This document shows positions 1 to 62,746 of a stretch of DNA of 62,746 bases, one piece after another. The stretch spans positions 1 through 62,746 of the forward strand of contig JAIPHP010000004.1 in NCBI GenBank assembly GCA_021735165.1. The letters are read 5' to 3'. This stretch comes from Candidatus Woesearchaeota archaeon (GTDB lineage: Archaea > Nanobdellota > Nanobdellia > Woesearchaeales > 21-14-0-10-32-9). The stretch's first letter is position 1. Each line of letters begins with the position of its first letter. Both the position numbers and the translations under genes were made by a program. A model generated the notes under the pieces. That model was not told the origin of the DNA, did no database searches, and worked only from the letters and a program-made list of their open reading frames with translations.

Positions 1-123
1 TAAGGCCACACATGGCTCTTAGATTTAATGTTCTGGAAACACCAGAACAAGCCTTTCAACGAAAGTTGAAAGCGGAGGTTTAATAAATGATAAAACGAAA
101 AAAGGTATCGAAGGGAAATACTT
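1..123 (+). ncRNA. Candidate structured RNA, 3' part only (truncated by window start)
   Basis: Four consecutive hairpins: 1-21 (TAAG-GCCA/TGGC-T-CTTA), 30-48 (GTTCTGG/CCAGAAC), 53-72 (CTTTCAAC-GAAA-GTTGAAAG, perfect 8 bp with GNRA loop), 103-123 (AGGTAT/ATACTT). Family not identified. Confidence 0.35.
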
Positions 124-187
124 ACAGGATAACACAAAAAGAAAAAAGAGGAAAAGATTTAAAAATACAGATTCTTAATCTTTTTTA

Positions 188-5052: not shown

Positions 5053-6369
5053 TTGAAAGAAATGGCTAAAATAGCACAAGTATCAGCAAAATATATCATA
5101 CACGCAAAAATTTTTATTGAGGGCGTAGTTGATCGTCCGGATGTAATAGGTGCAATCTTTGGACAAACAGAAGGTCTCTTAGGAGCTGATTTAGAACTAA
5201 GAGAATTGCAAAAATCTGGAAGAATTGGTAGAATTGAAGTTAATGTAGATGTGAAAGGCGGTAAGACTTCTGGCGAAATAATAATACCGTCAAGTCTTGA
5301 TAAAGCAGAAACTTCAATTGTTGGAGCAGCAATAGAAATAATCCAAAGAATAGGACCTTGTAATGCGAAATTACAAGTTGATAAAATTGAAGATATTAGA
5401 GTTAGCAAAAGAGCTAAAGTTATTGAAAGAGCAAAAGAGCTTCTTAAAGATCTTATGGACAAATCAATGCCAGATTCTCAAGAATTGAGTGATGAAGTTG
5501 CTCATTCTGTAAGAATGATGGAGATTACAAGTTATGGCAGAGAAAATTTGAGTGCCGGACCCGGTGTTGATGAGAGCGATGAAGTTATTATTGTTGAAGG
5601 AAGAGCGGACGTTTTAAACTTGTTAAAGCATGGTTTTAAGAATGCTATTGCAATGAATGGAACTTCTGTTCCTCAGACAATAATTGAGTTAAGTAAAGAG
5701 AAAACAATCACTGTTTTTGTTGATGGTGATAGAGGTGGTTCTTTAATAACTCAGGAATTAATGGGTGTTGCTGAAATTGATTATGTAACAAGAGCTCCTG
5801 ATGGAAAAGAAGTAGAAGAATTGACTAAGAAGGAAATTCATAAGGCTTTAAGAGCTAAAGTTGCTTCTGAGCAAGCAAAACTTGAAATGACTACTGATTC
5901 TCAAAGAAGCACAAGTAGCTATTCTCAGAGGAGCACAAACAGTAGTTCTGCAAGCAATAGTCAAAGAAGACCTCCACAGTCAAGGCAGAGCAGTTATAGT
6001 TCTCAACGAAGTTCAAGTTCTTCAAGTTCAAACAGTAGCAGTTCATCATCTCAATCAAGAAGCATTAAAAAAGATGCTACTGCAGATGAGAAGAAGAAGT
6101 TTCAGAGTTTAATTGAAGATTTGATAGGCACTAGAGGCGCATATATTTTGGATGAGAAATTAAGTATATTAGGTAAAGTCCCTGTTAGTGAACTTCAAAG
6201 CACTATCAGAAGTCTTGGTTCTGGCATTTACGCAGTTGTGTTTGATGGAGAAGCAGATAAGGATCTTATTAATATAAGCGAAAGAGCAAGTATCAATTTT
6301 ATAGTTGCTATGAGTTCTCAAGTAAAAGATTCGACAAGATTAAAAATATATACTGTAAATGACTTGTAA
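5053..6369 (+). CDS. dnaG: Archaeal DnaG-type primase/exosome-associated TOPRIM protein
   Basis: KYIIHAKI...[48 protein letters not shown]; Ser-rich linker; probable start ATG 5062. Confidence 0.95.
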
Positions 6370-8374: not shown

Positions 8375-9295
8375 TTAATTTGCCATTTCATAATTAGTTA
8401 CATATTCTTCATAGCAAAATTTTACTATTGCTTGTTTCTTTCCTCTTCTTGTGTTGTTGAGTGCAGATATATATTTGTTTCTTCTCTTGCTTCTTATTGC
8501 GATTGGAAGGAACTCTTTATTCATCAGAAACCAAGCCATCAACAATCTCCCAACCCTTCCATTTCCATCTATGAAAGGGTGTATTATTTCAAATTGTGCA
8601 TGACTTTGAAATATCACTTCAAATTCATTCATTTTTTTGAATGCTTTTTTTATCCAAGTAAATAACTGCTTCATTTTTTCATCTACAAATAAGTAAGATG
8701 TTGTGTATTGATTATCAACATAATTTTGAGATTGTTTGTATTTTCCTAATGTTCTATCTTCTTCAATTGTCTTGTTGACTTTTTCATGCAGAATCATTAA
8801 ATCTTTTTCTGTAGGCATTCTCTTTTTGTTTTCTTCGATGTACTCCCATGCTTCTAAAAGATTTTCCGCCATGTTTATTTCTTTCTTTGTACTTCCTGAA
8901 GGAGAAATGTTTTCAAAGAGATATCTGGATGTTTCTTTTACTGTCATTGTTGATCCTTCTATTGCATTGCTGTTTGCTATGAATATGCTTAGGAATCTTT
9001 GTTTTTCTTTTTGTCGCGATATTTTGTCCAAAGATTTAAGATGTTCTTTGTATTCTTCTGAAGCTTTTTTCATTTCTTCGTGTCTCTGATAAGATAATTC
9101 ATCTTTAAAATCTGTAAGTACCCAATCTTTTTTTTCATATGAGAATTTCATGCAATCAAATTCTTCTTTGGGAATAGGTCTTTTTTTTCCTATGTATTTT
9201 ATCGTTTTTTGCTTAACTTTGTTTTTTTCTCGTATAGAGTCAACTAAGTATAAGTATTCGTTTCCTTTAATTTTTTTAGTTACTATACTGGCCAT
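8375..9295 (-). CDS. Fic family protein (predicted AMPylase)
   Basis: Complete Fic motif HPFIDGNGRVGR; SNAIEGST motif; N-terminal beta-rich KKIKGNEYLYL extension. Confidence 0.92.
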   Translation of the reverse strand: MASIVTKKIKGNEYLYLVDSIREKNKVKQKTIKYIGKKRPIPKEEFDCMKFSYEKKDWVLTDFKDELSYQRHEEMKKASEEYKEHLKSLDKISRQKEKQRFLSIFIANSNAIEGSTMTVKETSRYLFENISPSGSTKKEINMAENLLEAWEYIEENKKRMPTEKDLMILHEKVNKTIEEDRTLGKYKQSQNYVDNQYTTSYLFVDEKMKQLFTWIKKAFKKMNEFEVIFQSHAQFEIIHPFIDGNGRVGRLLMAWFLMNKEFLPIAIRSKRRNKYISALNNTRRGKKQAIVKFCYEEYVTNYEMAN

Positions 9296-12774: not shown

Positions 12775-15000
12775 ATGAAAGAAAAATTGGTTAAATTTAT
12801 AGAACGTTCGGGAGGTATTGAAGAATTAATTAAAAAAAAAGAAGCTTTTAAGATCCCTTTAAAATCTAATACCACAATTTTTCCTTTTGATGAAGTTAAA
12901 GAAAAATTAAATAATTTTTTTGAAATCTATAAAGATAGTCCTCCTTCTACTTTAGAAGAAACTAAACGTTTGATGAATTTAAACAATAATGGCTTTCATT
13001 TAGCTAGTCAAGTAGAGTTTTGGGCAGAACTTATTGAAGGCAAAAGAACGTTTGGCAAAGGCATGAACATTTTCGGTTATGATTTTGGTTTTAGACTTAG
13101 AGAAGCTGATGTTGTTAAAATTATAAGAGACAACATAAGCATAGATTATTTGATAGAAGTGCATAACAATATTAAGTATCCTTTATCATTTAAAGATTTA
13201 ATAAAAGATGATTCTAAGAAAGCAATTAGAGCAAAAAATTATATTAAAAACAACAACAACATCAATATACGCAGCATTTTAGATAAGTCATTTCCCGAAA
13301 TTGTTGGTTTGACTGGTAAAACTGCTTATGAAATTTTGTATGATTTAGTTTCATTTGATGAAGCTAGAGACGAATTAAAAGACAGATTGTATTCTGGAGA
13401 AAAACTTGATAAGAATCATTTAAGAAACGACATATTTGGCAGGAAGATTTTTAATTTTTTATCTAGAAAAAAAGTTGAAATTTTAAAGAATGGAAAAAAA
13501 GTTGTTTTGACAAGACCAAGTGATTTAATCGCGTACACAATAAGTCCTCTCTTGAGCGGTCACGATATTGTTCCTGACAAACCAGGCACTATAAAGAGTG
13601 CTGCAACTTTACTTGAAAAATTAATAACTTTTTCTTTTTCAATAATTAGTAAATATGACCCTGAGTTGTCAAATTTTTCCGAGCTTAAAAATTTTGGTGG
13701 TTCTTTGAACAAAGTTTTTACTAGTTATGGTAAGCGAGCTTTAAATTTAGGCGTTAAGAAAATTTATCCAAAAAATTTATTTAGTAAAGAATGCAGAGAA
13801 AAAATAGAAAGAGTTGTCCCGGATGGAAGATTGGTTTTTGACGATTCTGAGGATATGTTGGAAATTAAAACTGCGCAGTACATATTTAAAAATGATTTTT
13901 ATGAGTCTGTTTCTAAGTTTAATAATTTTAAATATTGGTCGGATGGAAAAAGCATAGGTAAAAAAATACTTTTTGTTAATAATGCTAATGGAGATAAAGA
14001 AAGCATCATTTATCTTTGTAATAGAAATAATTGGAAGATTATTTTCGGAGATGATTTTCTTGAAACATATAATAAAAGTATTGATTTGCTTTTTGAAAAA
14101 GATGATGACTTTCATAGGATTTCAGTTATGAATGATAAGGAGACATTAAAAAAAGCGTATGACTCTCTTCTGAGCGTTCCTCATATTGAAATGAGAAGAC
14201 CTAATAAGTATAAATTGAAAAAGACAAGTGAACTTATTGAAAAAAACATTAAGTATTTGAAAGGTTTTGAAAAGATTAGCAAAACAAGAATAAAAAGATA
14301 TTGCGAATTAACAAAATTCAAATTGTCAGATTTTTCAAGTTTTTATGACCATGATTTATTTGATGATTCTTTTTCTAGGAAGGATATGAAAGGCGTTGTT
14401 TTTTATGATAGTGAAACAACAGGTTTTTTGAATCAGGGGTCTCTTATTGTGGCGCATTCCATTGCTAAGCTTTATGGAAATGATGTTTTTGCTTATGTTT
14501 ATTTTGTGAAAAATCCATATAATGAAAAGTTAATTCTTAAAAAAACAAATAAAAAATTAAAATCTGCTAAGAAAATTGTAACATTTAATGGGAATGTCTT
14601 TGATGATAAATTATATGCTAAGCGAAATTATATGAATTTGCTTAGAGAAGGAGAGTCAATTTCTAAAAAAGATCATTTAGATCTTAGAAAACTTTATTGG
14701 AAAACCTTTAGCGAACTTAAGGGTTATGCTTCGGGTAGTGTTCAAGATTATGAGCGTGGAATACTCGGGGCGATTAGAAGTACTTTTTTTAAAGAAAATG
14801 AAATGTCTGGCAAAGATGTGCCTTTAAATTATGGTGCGTATTTGCTTGGAGAGAAACATGAGGATTTGAAACATATGTTTTTGCATACTGCTTTGGATGT
14901 TTTTACTTTAGCTTATATGTATAAAGATTTTTTAAATTATGATTCTGATTTAGTTAAGAAAAACAAAATTGTTGAAGAGCAGCTCGAATTAGGTTTATGA
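12775..15000 (+). CDS. Large nuclease: PD-(D/E)xK-like domain plus C-terminal RNase H-like DEDD (YprB/RNase_H_2-type) exonuclease
   Basis: VPDGRLVFDDSEDMLEIKT motif; ExoI FYDSETTG, ExoII TFNGNVFD, HLDL, ExoIII HTALDV; ends EEQLELGL. Confidence 0.75.
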   Translation: MKEKLVKFIERSGGIEELIKKKEAFKIPLKSNTTIFPFDEVKEKLNNFFEIYKDSPPSTLEETKRLMNLNNNGFHLASQVEFWAELIEGKRTFGKGMNIFGYDFGFRLREADVVKIIRDNISIDYLIEVHNNIKYPLSFKDLIKDDSKKAIRAKNYIKNNNNINIRSILDKSFPEIVGLTGKTAYEILYDLVSFDEARDELKDRLYSGEKLDKNHLRNDIFGRKIFNFLSRKKVEILKNGKKVVLTRPSDLIAYTISPLLSGHDIVPDKPGTIKSAATLLEKLITFSFSIISKYDPELSNFSELKNFGGSLNKVFTSYGKRALNLGVKKIYPKNLFSKECREKIERVVPDGRLVFDDSEDMLEIKTAQYIFKNDFYESVSKFNNFKYWSDGKSIGKKILFVNNANGDKESIIYLCNRNNWKIIFGDDFLETYNKSIDLLFEKDDDFHRISVMNDKETLKKAYDSLLSVPHIEMRRPNKYKLKKTSELIEKNIKYLKGFEKISKTRIKRYCELTKFKLSDFSSFYDHDLFDDSFSRKDMKGVVFYDSETTGFLNQGSLIVAHSIAKLYGNDVFAYVYFVKNPYNEKLILKKTNKKLKSAKKIVTFNGNVFDDKLYAKRNYMNLLREGESISKKDHLDLRKLYWKTFSELKGYASGSVQDYERGILGAIRSTFFKENEMSGKDVPLNYGAYLLGEKHEDLKHMFLHTALDVFTLAYMYKDFLNYDSDLVKKNKIVEEQLELGL

Positions 15001-15087
15001 ATGGAATTTTAAAGTTAAATGTGGTGATTTGTTTCATTTCCTTTGTTTTTATCATAAAGAATTATCTTCTATATAGTATTTAATTAA

Positions 15088-16752
15088 ATGATAACCTTTT
15101 TATTTAAACAGAAATTAACACCATTTATGAATGAAGACAAAGAAGATAATCTTCTAAGCATCCGTGTTGATGAAACTAATAAATCCTTAAAAATGCCGCC
15201 TGCGTCCGAAGAAGCTGAAAAAAGACTTCTTGCAGGAATATTGGTTGATAATAAAAATTTAGATGCAATTATTGAAGAAAATATTCTAAAACCTGAACAT
15301 TTTTACAAAAAACAAAACAAAATGGTATATGCTGCTATGCTTGAAATTCATGAACATAATGCTACGGCAATAAAAGAAAAAAAAATTCAAATAGATGAGA
15401 TATCAATCTATGAACTTCTTAATAAAAAACAAAATATTTCAGAAGTAGGCGGCGCAGAATATTTGTCTAAATTATCTGAGATAAGTTTTTCCGGTGCCAA
15501 TACCAATTATTATTCTGCGCTTATTTATGAAAAATGGATTCGCAGACAAACTGTCGTTGCTTGTCTTAAAGCAAGTGAAGAGGCATATGAAAATGTCAAA
15601 GACACATTCGAGATTTTGCAGCAGACAATTAATAGACTTGCAAGATTGGCATCTGTACCTGAAAGAAACACAACATCTATTGATTCTGCCATAAAAGAAG
15701 TTAAAAATATTTACATAAATACAAAAAAAAGAAACGGAAATCCTGCCCTTTTAACAGGGTACCCTAAACTAGACTTATTAACTTATGGTTTAGCAGGAAA
15801 TTATATAACTTTAGTGCCTGCTGCAACAAAAATGGGAAAAACAACGTTTGCTTTAAACGTCGCAAAAAATGTTGCCGAGCTCAACAACAAAAGGGTTTTG
15901 TATATATCGCTTGAAGAAAATAAAAGACAAGACGCAATTAAAATTCTTTCAAGTATTTCAGGAGTTGATTCTTCTAAGTTTCATTTATATGAAGAATTGT
16001 CAAAAGAAGAAGATGAATTGTTATTAGATTCTTTTGAAAAAGGCAGTGATTTAAAAATCGATTTTTATGATGGAGATCCTAATACTGAAAACATATTAAA
16101 CGCGGTTGATCAGGAATTTGCGTTACATGATGATGTCTGTCTTGTTATTATTGATGTATTACAAGGGCATCCTGTAAGTGTAGATAATTTGCATTATAAA
16201 CCCGCTATTTATGGTAATTTTATTAGAAGTATTAAACAAGATATTGCCAAACATTATGACACGCATGTCCTTTTGACGTCTCAAGTAAAAGAGGAAGTTT
16301 CTACAGACATAAGAAAATATCCGGATTTTAGACCTAAAAGTATTTCAGACATCAAAGATGTGGAAGCAGGAATTGCAGATACTGTTAATAATGTTATTTT
16401 TTTATATAGGCCTAATCATTATTTTAAAGAAAAAGTTAATTTAGATGGAAATTATAGGAATCTAATTGATTTTCAATGTGAGTCAATTGATAAAGCAATA
16501 GAACACTATAGGTATTCTAAAAAACAAGATAAGGAAGCTAAAATAGATAATTTAAAAAAATCTAGAATATATAGATATAGAGAGGCTTTGAAAGAAAAAG
16601 AGGACGGTCTTAAAATCCCTCATTATATGTATAAACCTGAATTCAAAGATGCTATTCAGTTAATTCCTGTTCTTTCTAATATAGCCAGTACCGAGACTGC
16701 TTCTTTCATGCTCAAGTTTTATGGCAATACGAGCAGATTGAGTAATCCTTAA
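15088..16752 (+). CDS. Bacterial-type DnaB-like helicase/ATPase, divergent
   Basis: N-domain PPASEEAEKRLLAGIL; TGYPKLD, Walker A ATKMGKTT, ISLEE, Walker B VIIDVLQ, LTSQ, VIFLYR; probable start ATG 15127. Confidence 0.88.
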   Translation: MITFLFKQKLTPFMNEDKEDNLLSIRVDETNKSLKMPPASEEAEKRLLAGILVDNKNLDAIIEENILKPEHFYKKQNKMVYAAMLEIHEHNATAIKEKKIQIDEISIYELLNKKQNISEVGGAEYLSKLSEISFSGANTNYYSALIYEKWIRRQTVVACLKASEEAYENVKDTFEILQQTINRLARLASVPERNTTSIDSAIKEVKNIYINTKKRNGNPALLTGYPKLDLLTYGLAGNYITLVPAATKMGKTTFALNVAKNVAELNNKRVLYISLEENKRQDAIKILSSISGVDSSKFHLYEELSKEEDELLLDSFEKGSDLKIDFYDGDPNTENILNAVDQEFALHDDVCLVIIDVLQGHPVSVDNLHYKPAIYGNFIRSIKQDIAKHYDTHVLLTSQVKEEVSTDIRKYPDFRPKSISDIKDVEAGIADTVNNVIFLYRPNHYFKEKVNLDGNYRNLIDFQCESIDKAIEHYRYSKKQDKEAKIDNLKKSRIYRYREALKEKEDGLKIPHYMYKPEFKDAIQLIPVLSNIASTETASFMLKFYGNTSRLSNP

Positions 16753-21113: not shown

Positions 21114-21256
21114 GGGGACATAGTATAACCTGGCTAGAATGGCTGGCTCCAGTACTTTTATTGGAGCGATGAGACTTGTTTGTCGATGATTAGCGTTTTA
21201 GCGCGTTTTAAAGTGAGAGATACCAGCAGATTTGGGTTCGAATCCCAATGTCCCCA
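21114..21256 (+). tRNA. tRNA-Trp (CCA) with 69-nt intron at position 37/38 (21153-21221)
   Basis: Acceptor GGGGACA/TGTCCCC-A, anticodon stem GCTGG/CCAGC, CCA at 21149-51, T arm TTGGG-TTCGAAT-CCCAA; TTTATAAA TATA box at 21081. Confidence 0.93.
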
Positions 21257-31499: not shown

Positions 31500-32594
31500 A
31501 TGACATTAATAATAGGTGGAGGAGGAGCAGGACTGCACTATGCTAAACTTCTAAAAGAAAAACATCCAGAAATAAACACAACAATAATAGAAGAACATAA
31601 AGACATAGGAAAACCAATTCAATGCACAGGCATATTAACAGACGAAATAACTAAAATTCTGCCAAAACAAGAAATAGAAAAATTCACGTTAAACAAAATA
31701 ACAAAAACAAGAGTCTACTCTCAAAACAACCACGTAGACATACCAATAAATACAAACTACATAATCTGCAACATTACATTCATAAAATACCTCCATGAAC
31801 AAGCAGAAAAACAAGGCGTGAATATAAAACTAGGAAAAAGATATTTAAAAAACGAAGGAAAAATAACAACATATAGAGATACAGAAACAAAAAAAATAGA
31901 AGAAATAAAATTTGAAAATTTAATTGGCGCAGATGGCCCCGCATCAGCAGTGGCAAGAAATAACAATTTAATGCAAAAAAGAAAATACTTAACAGGAGTT
32001 CAAGCAAGAATTAAATTAAAAGATTTTGACAAAGAAAAAATAGACTTTTATCCTTACATCGGAGAATATGCTTGGTTTACCCCAGAATCTGATGAAATTG
32101 CCAGAATAGGCGTTGCCGCAGAAACAAACGCAAAAAAAATATTTGATGATTTCATAAAAAAATATCCTGGACAAATAATAGAAATGCAAGGAGGACCAAT
32201 ACCAATGCACAAACCAAAAACGCCGGTGCAAAACAAAAAACAAACAATAAGCCTCCTAGGAGACGCAGCACTTCAAATAAAAAACACGACAGGAGGAGGA
32301 ATAATACCAGGACTAAAAGCAGCTGAAAAATTATCAGAATCAACAGAAAAATATCAAAAAAACCTAAAAACACTAAACCTAGAACTATATGCGCACTACA
32401 AAATAAACAAAATACTAAAACAATACAACCAAAGAGAATGGGATACACTCATAAAAAAAGTAAATACTCCAAAAATAAAAGAGATACTTCAAAAAACAAA
32501 CAGAGACAAACCAATAAAAATGCTCTTAAAATTAGCAACACAACCAAAAATAATCATGCAAGGTTTAAAAGATATGCCGAAAATACTAAAATAA
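31500..32594 (+). CDS. Geranylgeranyl reductase family FAD oxidoreductase
   Basis: IIGGGGAG dinucleotide motif, PIQCTG, IGADGPAS, YAWFTP, GDAA...TGGGI. Confidence 0.9.
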   Translation: MTLIIGGGGAGLHYAKLLKEKHPEINTTIIEEHKDIGKPIQCTGILTDEITKILPKQEIEKFTLNKITKTRVYSQNNHVDIPINTNYIICNITFIKYLHEQAEKQGVNIKLGKRYLKNEGKITTYRDTETKKIEEIKFENLIGADGPASAVARNNNLMQKRKYLTGVQARIKLKDFDKEKIDFYPYIGEYAWFTPESDEIARIGVAAETNAKKIFDDFIKKYPGQIIEMQGGPIPMHKPKTPVQNKKQTISLLGDAALQIKNTTGGGIIPGLKAAEKLSESTEKYQKNLKTLNLELYAHYKINKILKQYNQREWDTLIKKVNTPKIKEILQKTNRDKPIKMLLKLATQPKIIMQGLKDMPKILK

Positions 32595-32719
32595 GACACA
32601 ACAATACCCAGCAAAACTGAAAGAAAAATCAAAATAAAACCATAAAACAAAAACATGCTACAATACTCAAAAAAATACACAAAACAAAGATATAAAATAC
32701 AAACGTTCCACAAACAACA

Positions 32720-32851
32720 GTATTGCCTTGGAGAGCAATTGAGAGAAACACAACGCAACACGCGTTGAAATTACGTGTTTCTCGGTAAAAACTTTAGACT
32801 GCAAAGTAGCTAACAAAAATCCGCAACACGAAAAAAAAGACTTAGGACACA
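32720..32851 (+). ncRNA. Dispersed structured element, copy 1
   Basis: 86/111 ungapped identities (manual count) with 61517-61627; GAGAAACAC/GTGTTTCTC stem and TTAG-A-CTGC-AAA-GTAG-CTAA hairpin. Confidence 0.6.
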
Positions 32852-32926
32852 ACCACAAAACACAAAACATTAAAAAACAAACAACAAAACTAAAACACAA
32901 AAACACAAAAAAATAGGGGGATAAAC

Positions 32927-35719
32927 TTGGAAGACAAAGAAAATCAGGAAGAAGAGCTAAACATTGACTTTGAATCAATAAAGAAAAAAACACAAAAAAT
33001 AACTCGCAGCATCTCAAATTTATTCAAAGCAAAATACGCACAAACAGCACTCATAATAATCTTCTTAATATTAATAATAACAATATCTGCATTCTACAGA
33101 CTATACCCTGCAACTCTTCCAGTAACAGATATTTGGGCAAAAGACACTGTTGCAAACAATATAAAAAACCAAATAGCTTCCCAAATTCAACAAACTAATC
33201 CAGGAATAACACAAGACCAACTAATAGCGCAAGCAAACCAGCAATACGCTTCTTATTATACTCAAAACAAAGAATCATTAGATTCTCAAATACAAACACT
33301 ATCACAACAATATAAATCGCAACTTCAAAACGAAAACGGACAAACATACCTATTAGCAATAGACCCATACTTGTGGTATAGCTACGCAAAATGGTATGAA
33401 AAAACAGGATTCTACGGAAATGAAATAGTAGACGGAATAGAAAAATTCACACTAAGAAACGGAAGAATAGGAGAAATAGCAGGAGTAATATACCCTTCTG
33501 CAGCAATAGTATTTTTCCACAAAATAATACAAATACTTAATCCATCACAAGACATACTAGCAACGAGCTTTCTAATGCCTGTAATATTGATAGGACTAGC
33601 AATAATACCCGCATTTTTCTTAGGAAAAAAAATAGGGGGCCTGGGAGGAGGCATCTTTGCAGCAACACTATTTGCATTATCATCTCCAATACTTGGAAGA
33701 ACCGCAGCAGGATTCTCAGACACAGACGCATACACATTCATATTTCCATTCCTAATACTTTGGGTATTAATAGAAGCAATAGATGCAAAAACACAAAGAA
33801 ACAAAATAATACTCTCCGCGCTAACAGGACTTCTAATAGCACTATTCATGTTTTTCTGGTCAGGATGGTGGTTTACCTTTGACTTCATGATAGGCGTAAC
33901 AATAATATACATTGCTTTCCAAATAATAAAACATCTAATAAAACACAAGAAAAAACCAAGTTTAAAAGAAACATACAAAATAACTAAACCAGGCCTAACA
34001 ATACTTGCAATTCTTATAATTTCAACAATAGTTTTTTCATTTATGTTTGCAACAATAAGCGGACGAACTGGAACAAAATCAGTCATGACCGTTTTAAACG
34101 CACCAATAGAACCTCTAAACTTCATACTAGGATTCAAAGGAGCAGCAGAAGGCGTAAGTGTTGGTTCAGGACTAAACTATCCCTTATGGCCAAATGTGTT
34201 CACAACAGTAGCAGAACTAAACCCTGGAAGCCCGCAGCAAATAATAAACGGGGGAGGAGGAAAAACACTAGTCTACGCTGCAATTTTAGGAATAATCCTT
34301 TTATTATTTAGAAAAAAAGATGGACACTACGAACCATTACTTGGAATAATACTAATAGCTTGGTTTGCAAGCACATACTACGCAGGACTAATAGGAATAA
34401 GATTCATAGCACTGTTTGCACCAGTAGTAGCATTTGGAATCGCAGGACTAATAGGCTCATTAACAGGAGAAAGAATGAAAAACATAGCTAAAAAAACAAA
34501 TATTCCTCTAAATCTGACAAGAGCAATAATACTAATAGCTGCATTCTTTATAATAGTATACCCGCAATTCGCGATAGCACACCAAACATCAATAAATGAA
34601 ATACCAAGCTATGACGACGTATGGGATTCTGCTATGAAAACCATTCAAAATACATCAGAAAAAGCAATAATAAGCAGTTGGTGGGACTTTGGACACTGGT
34701 TTGAAGCAATGAGCGAACGATCAGTAACATTTGACGGAGGAGACCAAGGAAAAAGAATACACTGGATAGGAAATACCCTGCTAAACCCAAACGAAAAAGA
34801 AGCAATAGAAACACTAAAAATGCTAAACTGCGGACAAGAAGAAAGCTATAATCTACTAGAAATTGCATTAAAAGACAAATACCAAGCAACAAAAACGCTC
34901 AAAAAAATAATATTGCAAAACAAAGAGGAAGCAAGAAAAACCTTGATAGCACTAAACATCAACGAAGAAAACATAAGCCAAATACTAGAATACACACACT
35001 GCTCAGATCTCTATGACATGTACTACATAACAAGCGGAGACATGGTAGGAAAAGCAGGAGTTTGGGGACACTTTGGATCATGGGACTTTGACAAAGCATA
35101 CATGTACTACAAACTAAAAAACATGCCAATAGATAAAGCAATACAAGAAGCCCAAGACACGCTAGGACTAACACAAGAAGAAGCGAAAAGTACATACATA
35201 GAAATGCAATCTATAACAAACGAAAACCAAGCAGCAGCATGGATAAGCCCTTGGCCAAACTACGTAACAACAAACCCAATAACTTGCCAAGAACAAAACA
35301 ATTCGATAGTATGCGACTACAACCTAAACATAGGGAATCAAAACGGAGCAATAATAAGCCTATACAGAGGAGTCTACTATGAAGACAAACCAGAAGAATC
35401 ATTCATAATATTAAGAGCAATAAACCCGAATACTGGAACAACACTATCACAAAACATGATAAAACCACAAGGACTAGCATTCTCAACAAAAGACGAAATA
35501 AAAAAAACAGAGTTTGAAACACCAGGAATAGGATACGACGTGCTAATATATGAAGAAAACAGTATAAAGAAAAGCCTGATAATGCACCCACTACTAACAG
35601 AATCATTATTCACAAAACTGTTCTACCTAGACGGAAAACACACAGAACACTTCGAAAAAATATTCGACCAACAAGCAATGGGAGAAGGCAGAGTAATTGT
35701 TTGGAAGGTAAATCCTTAA
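32927..35719 (+). CDS. aglB: Oligosaccharyltransferase AglB (STT3)
   Basis: AIDPYLWY, GFSDTD, TVAEL, WWDFG, DMVGK (DK motif); multi-TM N-terminal half; GGGGG RBS before the TTG start. Confidence 0.95.
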   Translation: MEDKENQEEELNIDFESIKKKTQKITRSISNLFKAKYAQTALIIIFLILIITISAFYRLYPATLPVTDIWAKDTVANNIKNQIASQIQQTNPGITQDQLIAQANQQYASYYTQNKESLDSQIQTLSQQYKSQLQNENGQTYLLAIDPYLWYSYAKWYEKTGFYGNEIVDGIEKFTLRNGRIGEIAGVIYPSAAIVFFHKIIQILNPSQDILATSFLMPVILIGLAIIPAFFLGKKIGGLGGGIFAATLFALSSPILGRTAAGFSDTDAYTFIFPFLILWVLIEAIDAKTQRNKIILSALTGLLIALFMFFWSGWWFTFDFMIGVTIIYIAFQIIKHLIKHKKKPSLKETYKITKPGLTILAILIISTIVFSFMFATISGRTGTKSVMTVLNAPIEPLNFILGFKGAAEGVSVGSGLNYPLWPNVFTTVAELNPGSPQQIINGGGGKTLVYAAILGIILLLFRKKDGHYEPLLGIILIAWFASTYYAGLIGIRFIALFAPVVAFGIAGLIGSLTGERMKNIAKKTNIPLNLTRAIILIAAFFIIVYPQFAIAHQTSINEIPSYDDVWDSAMKTIQNTSEKAIISSWWDFGHWFEAMSERSVTFDGGDQGKRIHWIGNTLLNPNEKEAIETLKMLNCGQEESYNLLEIALKDKYQATKTLKKIILQNKEEARKTLIALNINEENISQILEYTHCSDLYDMYYITSGDMVGKAGVWGHFGSWDFDKAYMYYKLKNMPIDKAIQEAQDTLGLTQEEAKSTYIEMQSITNENQAAAWISPWPNYVTTNPITCQEQNNSIVCDYNLNIGNQNGAIISLYRGVYYEDKPEESFIILRAINPNTGTTLSQNMIKPQGLAFSTKDEIKKTEFETPGIGYDVLIYEENSIKKSLIMHPLLTESLFTKLFYLDGKHTEHFEKIFDQQAMGEGRVIVWKVNP

Positions 35720-60546: not shown

Positions 60547-60851
60547 TAATACAAAAACAGAAGAGGACTATATAAAAGTTTTTAGTAAATTTCTATTTAT
60601 ATTCCATATTGTAATTAATTATTCTGTTCTGTAGTCATAATTAATAAACAAAAAAACAAAAAAAACATGTGCTTACATACTTCAGTTCAAATATAAACAA
60701 CATTTAGTGATAGAAAGGAAATAAGACCATTAAAATGATCAATAAAGATTATTTCAAACCTTAAATTTCAAAAAAAATATTATTTTACCAAAGAAAAAAA
60801 CGAAAATATCCACAAAAACATTTATAAACCAATATTGATTCCTAGATATTA

Positions 60852-60961
60852 GACGGTCAAAGCGACGTGGTTCCACCTGTTCCCATTTCGAACACAGAAG
60901 TTAAGCACGTCTACGTTCTGGTGCGTACTGCCCTTACGTGCGGGAGAGCCAGAAAGCTGTC
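60852..60961 (+). rRNA. rrf: 5S rRNA (stand-alone)
   Basis: Helix I GACGGT/GCTGTC, CCCATTTCGAACACAGAAGTTAAG, GTACTG...GGGAGA; TTTATAAA ~30 nt upstream and a T-run downstream. Confidence 0.95.
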
Positions 60962-61074
60962 ACCTTTTTTCTAATTTTTCTAATAATATAAAAAAAGTAT
61001 AAAAAATGTGTACTGCAACAAATTTAGTTGTGCAGCACACAATTCATGGTTTTAGGGGTTTGAACTGAGAAATA

Positions 61075-61287: not shown

Positions 61288-61516
61288 TTTTTATCACCTT
61301 ATTTTTGTATTTTGTTTTGTTAAAAATGTGTTTTGTTAGAAATTTCGGAAAATTCTATAGTTTTCAGGTTCAAAATCGGCTTTTTTTGAATATTTGCAAG
61401 AGCAAACAATTAAAATCACTCCTCAAAGTCCGTTTAGAAACGCAAGAATGCATCTAGCACATCCAGATACAAAAAATGTTAATTTTGTATTTTCATCAAG
61501 TGCATCCCGAATATCT

Positions 61517-61650
61517 GTATTACCTTGGAGCTCAATTACGAGGAACACAACGTGGAACGCGTTAAAGATCTGTGTTTCTTAGTAAAAAACTTAGACTGCA
61601 AAGCAACTAACAATACTCCGCAATACAAAAAAGAAAGACCTAAGGACACA
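61517..61650 (+). ncRNA. Dispersed structured element, copy 2
   Basis: Homologous to 32720-32851; stem GAGGAACAC/GTGTTTCTT, apical AACGTG-GAA-CGCGTT, hairpin TTAG-AC-TGC-AAA-GCA-A-CTAA. Confidence 0.6.
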
Positions 61651-61750
61651 CCCATTTTCATCCTAATCATCTCAAAAACAACAATAGTCACTTTTGAGTG
61701 GTATAAAATCGTAAAGTATTTAAAGTCTGTTCAATAATCTGTTAAAGACT

Positions 61751-62746
61751 ATGAGGAAAAAGAGTTTCTTTAGGAAAGGACTGGAAAAAATAATCTTAAC
61801 AGCATCAGGATTATTATTGCTAAACAGCATAAATACTTCTCAAACTACTAATTTAACGTTTTCAGGTGAAGTAAAGACTAAAACTGAAATGGAGAGGCCT
61901 TTGCAAGTACCAATAAACATAGAACAATTAGTCAGCGGCTCATGGCAACCAAGAACCAACACAACAAGCAACGAACAAGGCGAGTATGAAGTAAGTACTG
62001 TTATAACAGGCATGAAAGAACACCAAGCATTAACGCCAATGAACTACATAACTTTAGATAACAAGGGTTTTTTGTCTGCAACAGACAACACACAACTAAC
62101 ACACGCCGTGTACACATTACCTTTAATGCAAGAAATACTAAAAGAACAAATAAATCTAAAGCAAGGCAATAACGATTTGCCAAAAAACAATTTTCACGGA
62201 TTAGCCAACACCCATTATTTTGAAACATACAGCAACAAACACGGCATAATAAGCAGGCTCATAACAATCCAAAACAGCCAAATTACTCATGAAAGCGTAA
62301 AAGGAAACAGAACTATAAAAATGCCTGTGACCAACAGCAGAAATAATAATGATGATTTTGAGAAAGCACAAAAAACACAAGCCTCACAAGCTTCGCAGAA
62401 TTTTCAAAACTCCGATTCATTATACTTCAGAATAATAACAAACCCCAAAAACTTAGAAGGAAACCTAAAACAATACAAAGCAGACACCACGATAGCAAGC
62501 ACACCAAAAGATGCACCTACAAACATAACGAATCAAAAGCACAAACTAAACTTAAAAGACAACTACATATCAGTACAACTTTGGTACGTTACCAGCCTAG
62601 GAGAAATAAACGCAAACAAAGAACTACCAACAAACATTTCAGGCGTATTAGACACAACATTTTACTCCAACACAAACGGACTAATAGACATAACATTCAA
62701 AAAACCAAATACAGAAAACCAAGAAATAACAATCACATTCCCAAAC
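61751..62746 (+). CDS. Secreted/surface protein, truncated by window end (absent from the ORF track)
   Basis: ATG at 61751 opens a stop-free frame to the end of the window: MRKKSFFRKGLEKIILTASGLLLLNS signal-like start, then T/N-rich beta-type sequence; TTTAAA at ~61719. Confidence 0.8.
   Translation, partial: MRKKSFFRKGLEKIILTASGLLLLNSINTSQTTNLTFSGEVKTKTEMERPLQVPINIEQLVSGSWQPRTNTTSNEQGEYEVSTVITGMKEHQALTPMNYITLDNKGFLSATDNTQLTHAVYTLPLMQEILKEQINLKQGNNDLPKNNFHGLANTHYFETYSNKHGIISRLITIQNSQITHESVKGNRTIKMPVTNSRNNNDDFEKAQKTQASQASQNFQNSDSLYFRIITNPKNLEGNLKQYKADTTIASTPKDAPTNITNQKHKLNLKDNYISVQLWYVTSLGEINANKELPTNISGVLDTTFYSNTNGLIDITFKKPNTENQEITITFPN

What the first reader, a model, noticed from the sequence alone, without database searches (positions are those of the whole stretch)
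32720..32851. Novel two-copy structured non-coding element with covariation (partner at 61517-61650)
Seen: two intergenic copies 29 kb apart in the same orientation, 86/111 nt identical without gaps, then an A-tract and a shared GAC(C)T(T/A)AGGACACA end. Substitutions keep pairing on the + strand: outer 9-bp stem A-U/G-U and G-C/G-U, apical stem C-G/U-G, second hairpin G-U/G-C. Changes cluster in loops and in an 8-nt bulge. A possible long-range CCUUGG/CUAAGG closing helix exists. Both copies lie ~75-100 nt upstream of + strand cell-envelope genes (aglB; a secreted protein), and flanks are unrelated. Inference: an undescribed cis-regulatory RNA or riboswitch-like leader, a small RNA family, or a structured MITE. 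It matches no riboswitch or ribozyme consensus I can recognise.
Basis: partly seen in the sequence, partly recalled or inferred. Interest (0 to 1): 0.72.

Follow-up and report, generated by a model that had tools for sequence, protein, structure and literature searches.

The report
Small mobile DNA repeat (MITE)
The two look-alike intergenic stretches are worn copies of a roughly 155-bp non-coding mobile DNA repeat (a MITE) that occurs about 10-25 times in this lake Woesearchaeota-like archaeon, so they are an ordinary genome parasite and probably not a new regulatory RNA.

Summary
The two copies are real: 86/111 nt identical without gaps, blastn E 2e-27. First, the element is not two-copy. 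In the source metagenome the core has a word depth of about 470-575 against 22.7 for the contig, and many contigs of genome-like depth break inside it. Second, there is no covariation: 0 compensatory pairs, 4 one-sided G-U changes and 1 broken pair.

The ends of other copies show a perfect 13-bp terminal inverted repeat, GGGTGTGTCCCAA...TTGGGACACACCC, followed by unrelated AT-rich flanks. With the ends set by that repeat, copy B is 61498-61653 and sits between a perfect 9-bp direct repeat, ATTTTCATC. Copy A is 32701-32854 and sits between a 7/9 repeat. Relatives that keep the same two flanking genes next to each other have spacers of only 27-64 nt, or a small ORF or other inserted genes, and no element.

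There is no Rfam match, no conserved ORF, and no further covariance-model hit in the window or in about 250 kb of relatives' DNA.

Verdict: this is a miniature inverted-repeat transposable element (MITE), a new member of a known kind. Both window copies have decayed left arms and are probably immobile fossils. The matching transposase was not found. A secondary RNA or regulatory role is not excluded but has no support. No RNA data were available.

The parts
61498..61653 (+). Copy B of the MITE (156 bp), with ends set by the family's terminal inverted repeat
   Evidence: Aligns with copy A. Similarity to other copies in run X1 starts at about 61504 and stops at 61650-61653. Core word depth is 470-575 against 22.7.
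61489..61497 (.). Left copy of the 9-bp target-site duplication ATTTTCATC of copy B
   Evidence: the repeat finder family D2, 100% identical, spacing 165. It directly abuts the inferred first base of the element. Chance of 9/9 at this spacing: 1.6e-4 measured in the window, 1.2e-5 from local composition.
61654..61662 (.). Right copy of the 9-bp target-site duplication ATTTTCATC of copy B
   Evidence: It starts immediately after ...GGACACACCC.
61498..61510 (+). Decayed left inverted-repeat arm of copy B (AAGTGCATCCCGA, 8/13 to GGGTGTGTCCCAA)
   Evidence: Compared by eye with the left-arm consensus from other copies' loose ends. Sequence printed.
61641..61653 (+). Right inverted-repeat arm of copy B (TAAGGACACACCC, 11/13 to TTGGGACACACCC)
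   Evidence: the DNA search finds it with 2 mismatches to the left-arm consensus on the - strand.
32701..32854 (+). Copy A of the MITE (154 bp), more diverged from the family than copy B
   Evidence: Alignment with B. Word depth rises to about 150 over 32724-32750 and is lower over the rest. Contigs of other copies join at 32720 with ...GGGTGTGTCCCAAATATCT before it.
32692..32700 (.). Left flank 9-mer ATAAAATAC of copy A (probable decayed target-site duplication)
   Evidence: 7/9 identical to the right flank 9-mer, with two T/C transitions. Chance about 0.01 in this A-rich context.
32855..32863 (.). Right flank 9-mer ACAAAACAC of copy A
32842..32854 (+). Right inverted-repeat arm of copy A (TTAGGACACAACC, 11/13)
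   Evidence: 2 mismatches.
32743..32783 (+). Internal hairpin 1 of copy A (9-bp + 5-bp stem, 8-nt 3' bulge). Equivalent in B: 61540-61580
   Evidence: inverted repeat I1: GAGAAACAC/GTGTTTCTC.
32794..32813 (+). Internal hairpin 2 of copy A (UUAG-A-CUGC AAA GUAG-CUAA). Equivalent in B: 61591-61610
   Evidence: The family majority has G at 61606, which restores the pair broken in B.

Best explanation
The two stretches are copies of a non-autonomous DNA transposon, a miniature inverted-repeat transposable element (MITE). It is about 155 bp long, codes for nothing, and carries 13-bp terminal inverted repeats (GGGTGTGTCCCAA ... TTGGGACACACCC).

How it most likely works (inferred from how such elements behave): a transposase encoded elsewhere in the genome binds the two arms, cuts the element out or copies it, and inserts it at staggered cuts 9 bp apart in AT-rich intergenic DNA. 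Repair of the staggered cuts leaves a 9-bp direct repeat on each side.

The family has spread to roughly 10-25 sites in this Woesearchaeota-like genome. The two window copies are old insertions. Their right arms are 11/13 intact, and their left arms are 8/13 and 6/13 intact, so they are probably no longer mobile. The internal hairpins and the 'closing helix' are features of the element itself. An intact copy folds as one long branched hairpin because its ends are complementary.

Shown here: multi-copy status, the inverted repeat, sharp boundaries with unrelated flanks, the duplication around copy B, and absence from the orthologous site in relatives.

Inferred: the transposition mechanism, and the existence of a partner transposase, which was not found.
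For: 1. Multi-copy status. Over 61544-61607 the summed word depth of Logan contigs from the source run is 470-575, against 22.7 for the host contig. The host contig itself breaks at 61589, inside the element. Contigs of 1.9-22 kb with depth 17-23, the same as this genome, start or end inside the element.

2. Inverted repeat. Other copies read ...GGGTGTGTCCCAAATATCT just before the shared core and GAC-TTGGGACACACCC at its end. These arms are exact reverse complements over 13 nt.

3. Sharp boundaries. At least seven individual 3' junctions continue into different AT-rich sequences right after ...CACAC(C/T)CC, and the 5' junctions behave the same way.

4. Target-site duplication. A perfect ATTTTCATC abuts both ends of copy B (chance 1e-4 to 1e-5). 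Copy A has a 7/9 match.

5. Lineage-specific insertion. Six groups of relatives' loci keep the order GGR-like oxidoreductase then AglB. Their spacers are 27-64 nt, or hold a 74-77 aa ORF, or hold other inserted genes. None holds the element.

6. No coding capacity. The only frame open in copy B has a stop in copy A and in the family majority (61539 C>A gives TAA). The protein search with that ORF found only the window's own ORF call.

7. Folding. The reconstructed intact element folds far better than shuffles: RNA z -6.2, DNA z -4.9. The decayed window copies do not.

8. Literature. A census of prokaryotic MITEs reports DPANN genomes, including a Woesearchaeal one, among the archaea with the highest MITE density (PMC11602168).
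Against: - No autonomous element or transposase with matching ends was found. None of the window ORFs scanned against Pfam hits a transposase or recombinase family, and the arm sequence occurs in the window only at the two copies.
- No complete third copy could be read, because the assemblies break inside the element. The inverted repeat is therefore reconstructed from left and right junctions of different contigs, and duplications could be checked only for the two window copies.
- No polymorphic empty site was seen in the contig data.
- The relatives used for the empty-site argument are distant, at 52-57% AglB identity.
- Some downstream junctions share short motifs, such as AACAATAG and ...AAAGTC before 61684. 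This hints that several copies sit just upstream of paralogues of the same secreted-protein gene. That could reflect target preference or segmental duplication.
- Four of five stem substitutions keep pairing on the + strand only.
Confidence: 0.8

Rival explanations
1. A family of structured non-coding RNAs. This is either a small RNA gene with its own promoter or a 5' leader acting in cis on the downstream cell-envelope genes. The RNA would be made from the + strand starting near GTATT.
For: - All four stem changes between A and B are G-U compatible on the + strand only, against one that breaks a pair.
- The family majority itself has a G-U pair at 61540/61580.
- Paired columns carry fewer substitutions: 5/44 against 20/67, p = 0.035.
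- Both copies point the same way as the downstream gene.
- An A/T-rich TATA-like stretch lies about 23-30 nt upstream of GTATT in copy A and in some other copies (read by eye).
- The intact consensus folds with z -6.2.
Against: - No Rfam family matches, even at E <= 10.
- Zero compensatory changes.
- Among the variant sites listed for other copies, about half fall in stems and several break pairs: 61551 C>A, 61552 G>A, 61603 G>A.
- The element is absent upstream of aglB in all relatives, whose spacers are too short to hold it.
- The inverted-repeat arms, the 9-bp duplication and the dispersed copies are not expected of a leader.
- If transcription starts at GTATT, the left arm is not in the RNA, so the strongest helix could not form.
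- Both downstream genes have their own promoter-like A/T boxes between the element and the start codon (by eye).
- No RNA runs exist to test transcription.
Confidence: 0.1
2. An invertible DNA switch (inverton): a roughly 130-bp segment between inverted repeats that a site-specific recombinase flips to turn neighbouring surface or glycosylation genes on and off. Many loci would share the same repeat, as in Bacteroides.
For: - A short segment bounded by 13-bp inverted repeats.
- Many copies with the same arms.
- The two window copies lie just upstream of a glycosylation cluster and of a secreted-protein gene whose 5' region is itself repeated about 20 times.
Against: - No contig shows the segment in the opposite orientation between the same flanks, and no strand-changing joints were reported. 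Only contigs, not raw reads, were available.
- The perfect 9-bp direct repeat around copy B is not explained by inversion.
- No recombinase was found among the scanned window ORFs.
- The left arms of both window copies are decayed.
- No convincing promoter was recognised inside the element.
Confidence: 0.04
3. Not mobile at all: the element is part of a larger upstream block that was copied along with a family of secreted-protein genes by segmental duplication or gene conversion.
For: - The 5' region of the gene downstream of copy B (61684-61950) has about the same copy number (word depth 200-450) as the element.
- Some junction consensus sequences suggest that, at a few loci, the element lies about 20-25 nt before that block.
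Against: - The spacer 61656-61683 is unique, at depth 23-38.
- Individual 3' flanks of other copies differ from each other.
- Copy A sits upstream of an unrelated gene (aglB).
- Similarity stops exactly at the inverted-repeat ends.
- Copy B has its own flanking duplication.
Confidence: 0.05

Closest known systems
Prokaryotic MITEs in general, including archaeal ones (for example the Sulfolobus SM1-SM4 elements, recalled from my own knowledge, and the archaeal MITEs catalogued in PMC11602168)
   Same: - Size, about 155 bp against a reported range of 50-800 bp.
- No coding capacity.
- Terminal inverted repeats of at least 10 bp.
- A flanking duplication within the reported 2-10 bp range.
- Intergenic AT-rich location.
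- Many copies per genome with unrelated flanks.
- The whole element folds as a hairpin.
The census paper already reports a high MITE load for DPANN and Woesearchaeal genomes.
   Different: The sequence matches nothing in the collections searched. The partner insertion sequence is unknown, so the element cannot be assigned to an IS family. A 9-bp duplication is typical of several families (IS1, IS4, IS256, the IS903 group of IS5; from my own knowledge of ISfinder, not tested here).
Correia elements of Neisseria, and the ERIC and RUP repeats of bacteria
   Same: These are dispersed intergenic repeats of about 100-150 bp with inverted ends. When co-transcribed they fold into stable RNA hairpins and can change expression of neighbouring genes. 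They are the best models for a possible secondary effect of this element.
   Different: They are bacterial, unrelated in sequence, and have a different duplication (TA for Correia elements). No effect on transcription or processing has been shown here.
Riboswitches and other cis-regulatory leaders in Rfam
   Same: Intergenic position, same strand as the downstream gene, and two conserved hairpins.
   Different: No Rfam match, not conserved upstream of orthologous genes, no covariation, and features of mobile DNA (multi-copy, inverted ends, flanking duplication).
Invertible promoters (invertons) of Bacteroides and other bacteria
   Same: A short segment between inverted repeats, with many loci sharing the repeat, lying upstream of surface and polysaccharide genes.
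   Different: No evidence of two orientations, no recombinase found, and direct repeats outside the inverted repeats.

Membership tests
MITE (non-autonomous class II transposable element) | Short (about 50-800 bp) with no transposase or other conserved ORF | tested here: met
   The copies are 154 and 156 bp. The only frame open in B is interrupted in A and in the family majority. The protein search found nothing but the window's own ORF call.
MITE (non-autonomous class II transposable element) | Terminal inverted repeats of at least about 10 bp | tested here: met
   A 13/13 complementary GGGTGTGTCCCAA / TTGGGACACACCC pair is seen in the junction sequences of other copies. Caveat: left and right junctions come from different contigs. 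In the window copies the right arms are 11/13 and the left arms 8/13 and 6/13.
MITE (non-autonomous class II transposable element) | Target-site duplication (2-10 bp direct repeat) directly outside the inverted repeats | tested here: met
   Copy B has ATTTTCATC 9/9 on both sides. Copy A has 7/9. This could not be checked for other copies.
MITE (non-autonomous class II transposable element) | Several copies in one genome with unrelated flanks | tested here: met
   The depth ratio indicates about 10-25 copies. At least seven different 3' flanks and several different 5' flanks lie on contigs of genome-like depth.
MITE (non-autonomous class II transposable element) | A partner insertion sequence or transposase with the same ends in the genome or population | tested here: inconclusive
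   None found in the 62.7-kb window. The rest of the genome could not be read. The high-copy repeat at window 1-140 has different ends.
MITE (non-autonomous class II transposable element) | Empty (unoccupied) sites at orthologous or allelic positions | tested here: inconclusive
   Relatives lack the element at the GGR-aglB junction, with spacers of 27-64 nt. They are too distant for a base-by-base empty-site comparison. No allelic empty site appears in the contig data.
Riboswitch / cis-regulatory leader RNA | Conserved upstream of orthologous genes in related genomes | tested here: not met
   Absent upstream of aglB in all eleven relatives' loci. There is also no covariance-model hit anywhere in the loci searched, about 250 kb including unrelated pattern hits.
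Riboswitch / cis-regulatory leader RNA | Base pairs supported by compensatory changes | tested here: not met
   0 of 22 pairs change on both sides, 4 change on one side, and 1 is broken. With two sequences the power is minimal.
Riboswitch / cis-regulatory leader RNA | Match to a described RNA family | tested here: not met
   No Rfam 15 hit at gathering scores. At E <= 10 only chance snoRNA-like hits far below their thresholds were reported.
Riboswitch / cis-regulatory leader RNA | Transcribed as part of the downstream mRNA | not testable with these tools
   No RNA run holds the sequence.
Inverton (invertible promoter) | Both orientations of the segment present between the same flanks | tested here: inconclusive
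   No strand-changing joints were seen. Only assembled contigs were available, and contigs drop minor forms.
Inverton (invertible promoter) | A site-specific recombinase that acts on the repeats | tested here: inconclusive
   None among the scanned window ORFs. The rest of the genome was not seen.

The most novel reading that the evidence does not exclude
The MITE family may have been put to use by the host. Intact copies would fold into a very stable 155-nt branched RNA (z -6.2). The two readable copies both point the same way as a downstream cell-envelope gene, and some junctions hint at others lying just upstream of a roughly 20-member secreted-protein gene family. The elements could therefore act as shared cis-regulatory modules for surface-protein expression in a DPANN archaeon, for example as transcript-stabilising or processing hairpins, as insulators, or as recombination or inversion sites that drive surface variation.
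Probability: 0.1. Interest if true: 0.55.

Novelty: new member of a known kind. Interest (0 to 1): 0.2.

Why it matters
Mostly as a correction. A repeat that looked like a new structured regulatory RNA is a mobile-element fossil, and 'covariation' made only of G-U wobble changes between two paralogous copies is not evidence for an RNA structure.

It also has some modest value of its own:
- It adds a defined MITE family, with its ends, size and 9-bp duplication, to a small-genome DPANN archaeon.
- It explains why assemblies of this genome break at these sites.
- Together with two other high-copy repeats seen at the contig ends, it shows that this reduced genome carries a notable repeat load near its surface-protein and glycosylation genes.

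Tried and rejected
**Searches for other copies that found nothing**
- Exact-pattern scan of GTDB species genomes with TTAGACTGCAAAGNNNCTAAC gave 8 hits. The two archaeal ones were read and are chance matches inside unrelated sequence.
- The same core with R at the loop, scanned against JGI metagenomes, gave 11 hits. None extends beyond the pattern by blastn or nhmmer.
- Scans of viral contigs with the core pattern and with the inverted-repeat pattern gave 0 hits.
- blastn of the reconstructed consensus against phage and plasmid collections gave no match.

**Attempts to reach other copies through proteins**
- Paralogues of the downstream secreted protein gave two partial proteins of a Ca. Woesearchaeota MAG at 84-90% identity. 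Their contigs are not on record.
- A search with the spurious ORF that spans copy B returned only the window's own ORF call.
- The left-end gene of the window lies on a Logan contig that does not extend beyond the window.

**Other readings considered by eye and set aside**
- H/ACA guide RNA, because a helix followed by ACA lies at the 3' end. There is no pseudouridylation pocket (the 5' strand of hairpin 1 has no unpaired bases), no K-turn and no Rfam hit.
- C/D box RNA. There are no box motifs, and the Rfam snoRNA hits have E values of 2-10, far below their thresholds.
- tRNA-like or split tRNA, because of the ...ACCA/CCCA ends. ARAGORN and Rfam find nothing here.
- Template and variable repeats of a diversity-generating retroelement. 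The substitutions are not adenine-specific (16 transitions and 9 transversions of all kinds), and the copies are intergenic.
- Replication-origin recognition boxes. The GTTCCAC motif occurs near copy A only.

**A claim I dropped**
An extended subterminal inverted repeat (GTATT.C..GGAG) beyond the 13-bp arms is not better than shuffled sequence, so I do not claim it.

Full report
**1. What is in the window**

The two stretches exist as described. They are 86/111 nt identical without gaps, and blastn gives 79% identity over 138 nt with E 2e-27.

- No third copy is found in the window by blastn or by a covariance model built from A and B and run with filters off.
- The window is a complete 62,746-nt contig from a lake-water metagenome.
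- The organism is an AT-rich archaeon. Its closest named proteins come from Candidatus Woesearchaeota MAGs.
- Copy A lies between a geranylgeranyl-reductase-like FAD oxidoreductase (31500-32594) and AglB/STT3 (32927-35719), the first gene of a long glycosylation cluster.
- Copy B lies between a 5S rRNA gene (60849-60965) and an ORF with a signal-peptide-like N-terminus that runs off the contig (61751 to the end).

**2. The structural claims**

Both copies form hairpin 1 (9-bp + 5-bp stem with an 8-nt 3' bulge) and hairpin 2.

- No pair changes on both sides, and one pair of hairpin 2 is broken in B. This is compatibility, not covariation, and two sequences give no statistical power.
- The folding energies of the window copies are ordinary, with z-scores of -1.4 and -1.5 on the + strand and -0.9 and -1.2 on the - strand.
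- Paired columns carry fewer changes than unpaired ones (5/44 against 20/67, p = 0.035). The helices were selected for pairing in both copies, which biases this comparison.
- Rfam 15 has no match at gathering scores. At E <= 10 it gives only chance snoRNA-like hits.

**3. The element is not two-copy**

I laid the Logan contigs of the source run (X1) on the window. The host contig has a word depth of 22.7, but the summed depth over the core of copy B is 470-575, and 72 contigs match in that region.

- The Logan version of this contig ends at 61589, inside the element.
- Contigs of 1.9, 2.1, 3.1, 3.2, 4.2, 4.8, 10 and 22 kb, all at depth 17-23 like this genome, begin or end inside it.
- The depth ratio is 21-25 at the core and 5-13 towards the ends, so I estimate roughly 10-25 copies in this genome.
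- Copy B is close to the family majority. Copy A is more diverged.

**4. Ends of the family**

The parts of those contigs that run beyond the shared sequence give the ends.

- Upstream of the shared core they read ...GGGTGTGTCCCAAATATCT, with one variant GGGTTTGTTCCA.
- At the other end they read GAC-TTGGGACACACCC.
- The two arms are exact reverse complements over 13 nt.
- Beyond the arms the sequences differ from copy to copy and are AT-rich. Examples on the right are TAAAGAAAAAAC, GTTTAGTCAAAAAC, AAAAAACAATAGTT and TTAAAAATCC. Examples on the left are ...CATAAAAATA and ...TTAAAAGTTA.
- The family therefore has sharp boundaries at a terminal inverted repeat.
- In the window copies the right arms are 11/13 intact. 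The left arms are 8/13 (B) and 6/13 (A).

**5. Target-site duplication**

With the ends fixed by the family arms, copy B is 61498-61653. The nine bases before it (61489-61497) and the nine after it (61654-61662) are both ATTTTCATC. The repeat finder reports this pair independently.

- At this spacing a 9/9 match occurs at 10 of 62,572 window positions (1.6e-4). Local base composition gives 1.2e-5.
- Copy A is 32701-32854, flanked by ATAAAATAC and ACAAAACAC. That is a 7/9 match with two transitions, and the chance is about 0.01 in this A-rich context.

**6. Relatives**

The nearest AglB homologues are 52-57% identical. Eleven loci from six proteins were fetched.

- All keep the oxidoreductase upstream of AglB, adjacent in all but one (L025, where three genes are inserted).
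- The spacer is 50 nt (L024), 64 nt (L027, L028) and 34 nt (L031, L032).
- In L021-L023 and L029-L030 a 74-77 aa ORF fills the gap. In L025 three unrelated genes are inserted.
- None contains the element by nhmmer or by the covariance model. The loci searched total about 250 kb and include unrelated pattern hits.
- The element is therefore a lineage-specific insertion at this junction, not a conserved aglB leader.

**7. Coding capacity and partners**

- The one frame open through copy B has a stop in copy A. It also has a stop in the family majority, because 61539 C>A makes TAA.
- The protein search with that ORF returned only the window's own ORF call.
- None of the 38 window ORFs scanned against Pfam hits a transposase or recombinase family, and for most of the glycosylation cluster between them the precomputed Pfam labels show none either.
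- The arm sequence occurs in the window only at the two copies.
- The partner transposase is therefore unknown.

**8. Interpretation**

Small size, no ORF, a 13-bp terminal inverted repeat, a 9-bp flanking duplication, many copies with unrelated flanks, and absence from the orthologous site together meet the usual definition of a MITE. That definition is TIRs of at least 10-15 bp, TSDs of 2-10 bp and a size of 50-800 bp (PMC11602168).

- The same paper reports DPANN genomes, including a Woesearchaeal one, among the archaea with the highest MITE density. The kind is known, and this family appears to be undescribed.
- The reconstructed intact element folds as one long branched hairpin: RNA -49.3 kcal/mol with z -6.2, and DNA z -4.9. 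This is what complementary ends produce.
- The reconstruction combines junctions from different contigs and is an inference.
- The mechanism is also inferred: a transposase acting in trans on the arms and making staggered cuts 9 bp apart.
- Both window copies have lost their left arm and are probably immobile.

**9. What remains open**

- The + strand bias of the wobble changes (4 against 1), the shared orientation with the downstream genes, and a TATA-like A/T stretch about 23-30 nt before GTATT in some copies leave room for a secondary RNA or promoter-related role.
- Some junction sequences suggest that several copies lie about 20-25 nt upstream of paralogues of the secreted-protein gene, whose 5' region (61684-61950) is itself present about 20 times.
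- I could not read complete further copies, raw reads or RNA data. The inverton and regulatory readings are therefore unlikely but not excluded.

**10. Limits of the searches**

The two large collection scans used exact patterns from hairpin 2 and returned only chance matches. Diverged relatives of the family would have been missed. The source genome is evidently not in those collections in a form that matches the pattern.

Noticed in passing
window 1-141: The left end of the contig is another high-copy repeat. Window 1-136 matches the end of a 935-nt contig with word depth 317, about 14 times the genome depth. The last 30 nt or so (107-140) reach depth 926, about 40 times, and several contigs branch into different sequences after 136-141. 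The stretch holds two perfect hairpins (GTTCTGG-AAACA-CCAGAAC at 30-48; CTTTCAAC-GAAA-GTTGAAAG at 53-72) and the last 21 codons of an ORF cut off by the contig end. It is possibly the end of an insertion sequence. Its ends do not resemble the MITE arms, and Rfam has no hit.
   Followed up: partly
window 61684-61950: The promoter region, signal peptide and first residues of the ORF with a signal-peptide-like N-terminus are repeated about 15-20 times in the source genome (word depth 200-450 against 22.7). The contig ends inside this gene. This suggests a multigene family with a conserved 5' end. Two partial homologues at 84-90% identity occur in a Ca. Woesearchaeota MAG (K9L97), both at contig ends.
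   Followed up: partly
window 21114-21256 (+): Rfam finds a full-length tRNA match (42.8 bits) spread over 143 nt, which implies an intron or insertion of about 70 nt. ARAGORN finds no tRNA anywhere in the window.
   Followed up: no
window 5053-6369 and 12775-16752: A Toprim-domain protein, a 741-aa protein with an RNase_H_2 (PF13482) domain, and a bacterial-type DnaB-like helicase lie within about 12 kb of one another. A DnaB-type helicase is unusual for an archaeal chromosome and may mark an integrated element.
   Followed up: no
window 8375-9295 (-): A Fic/DOC-family protein (PF02661, E 8.5e-16) lies next to an RFC-like AAA+ ATPase.
   Followed up: no
L021 9699-9932; L029 9749-9973: In two relatives a small ORF of 74-77 aa with no Pfam hit fills the gap between the oxidoreductase and AglB. 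This is the gap where the window carries the MITE.
   Followed up: no
L025 7997-9804: In the K9M18 Woesearchaeota MAG the same junction holds three inserted - strand genes: a Bro-N domain protein, a nucleotidyltransferase and a small ORF. The site seems to accept insertions repeatedly.
   Followed up: no
window 32829-32841 and 61626-61639, - strand: On the - strand the element carries a T-run (T8 in copy A, T3CT6 in copy B; TTTCTTTTT in the family consensus). It could act as an archaeal oligo-T terminator for transcription entering from the right. This is untested.
   Followed up: no
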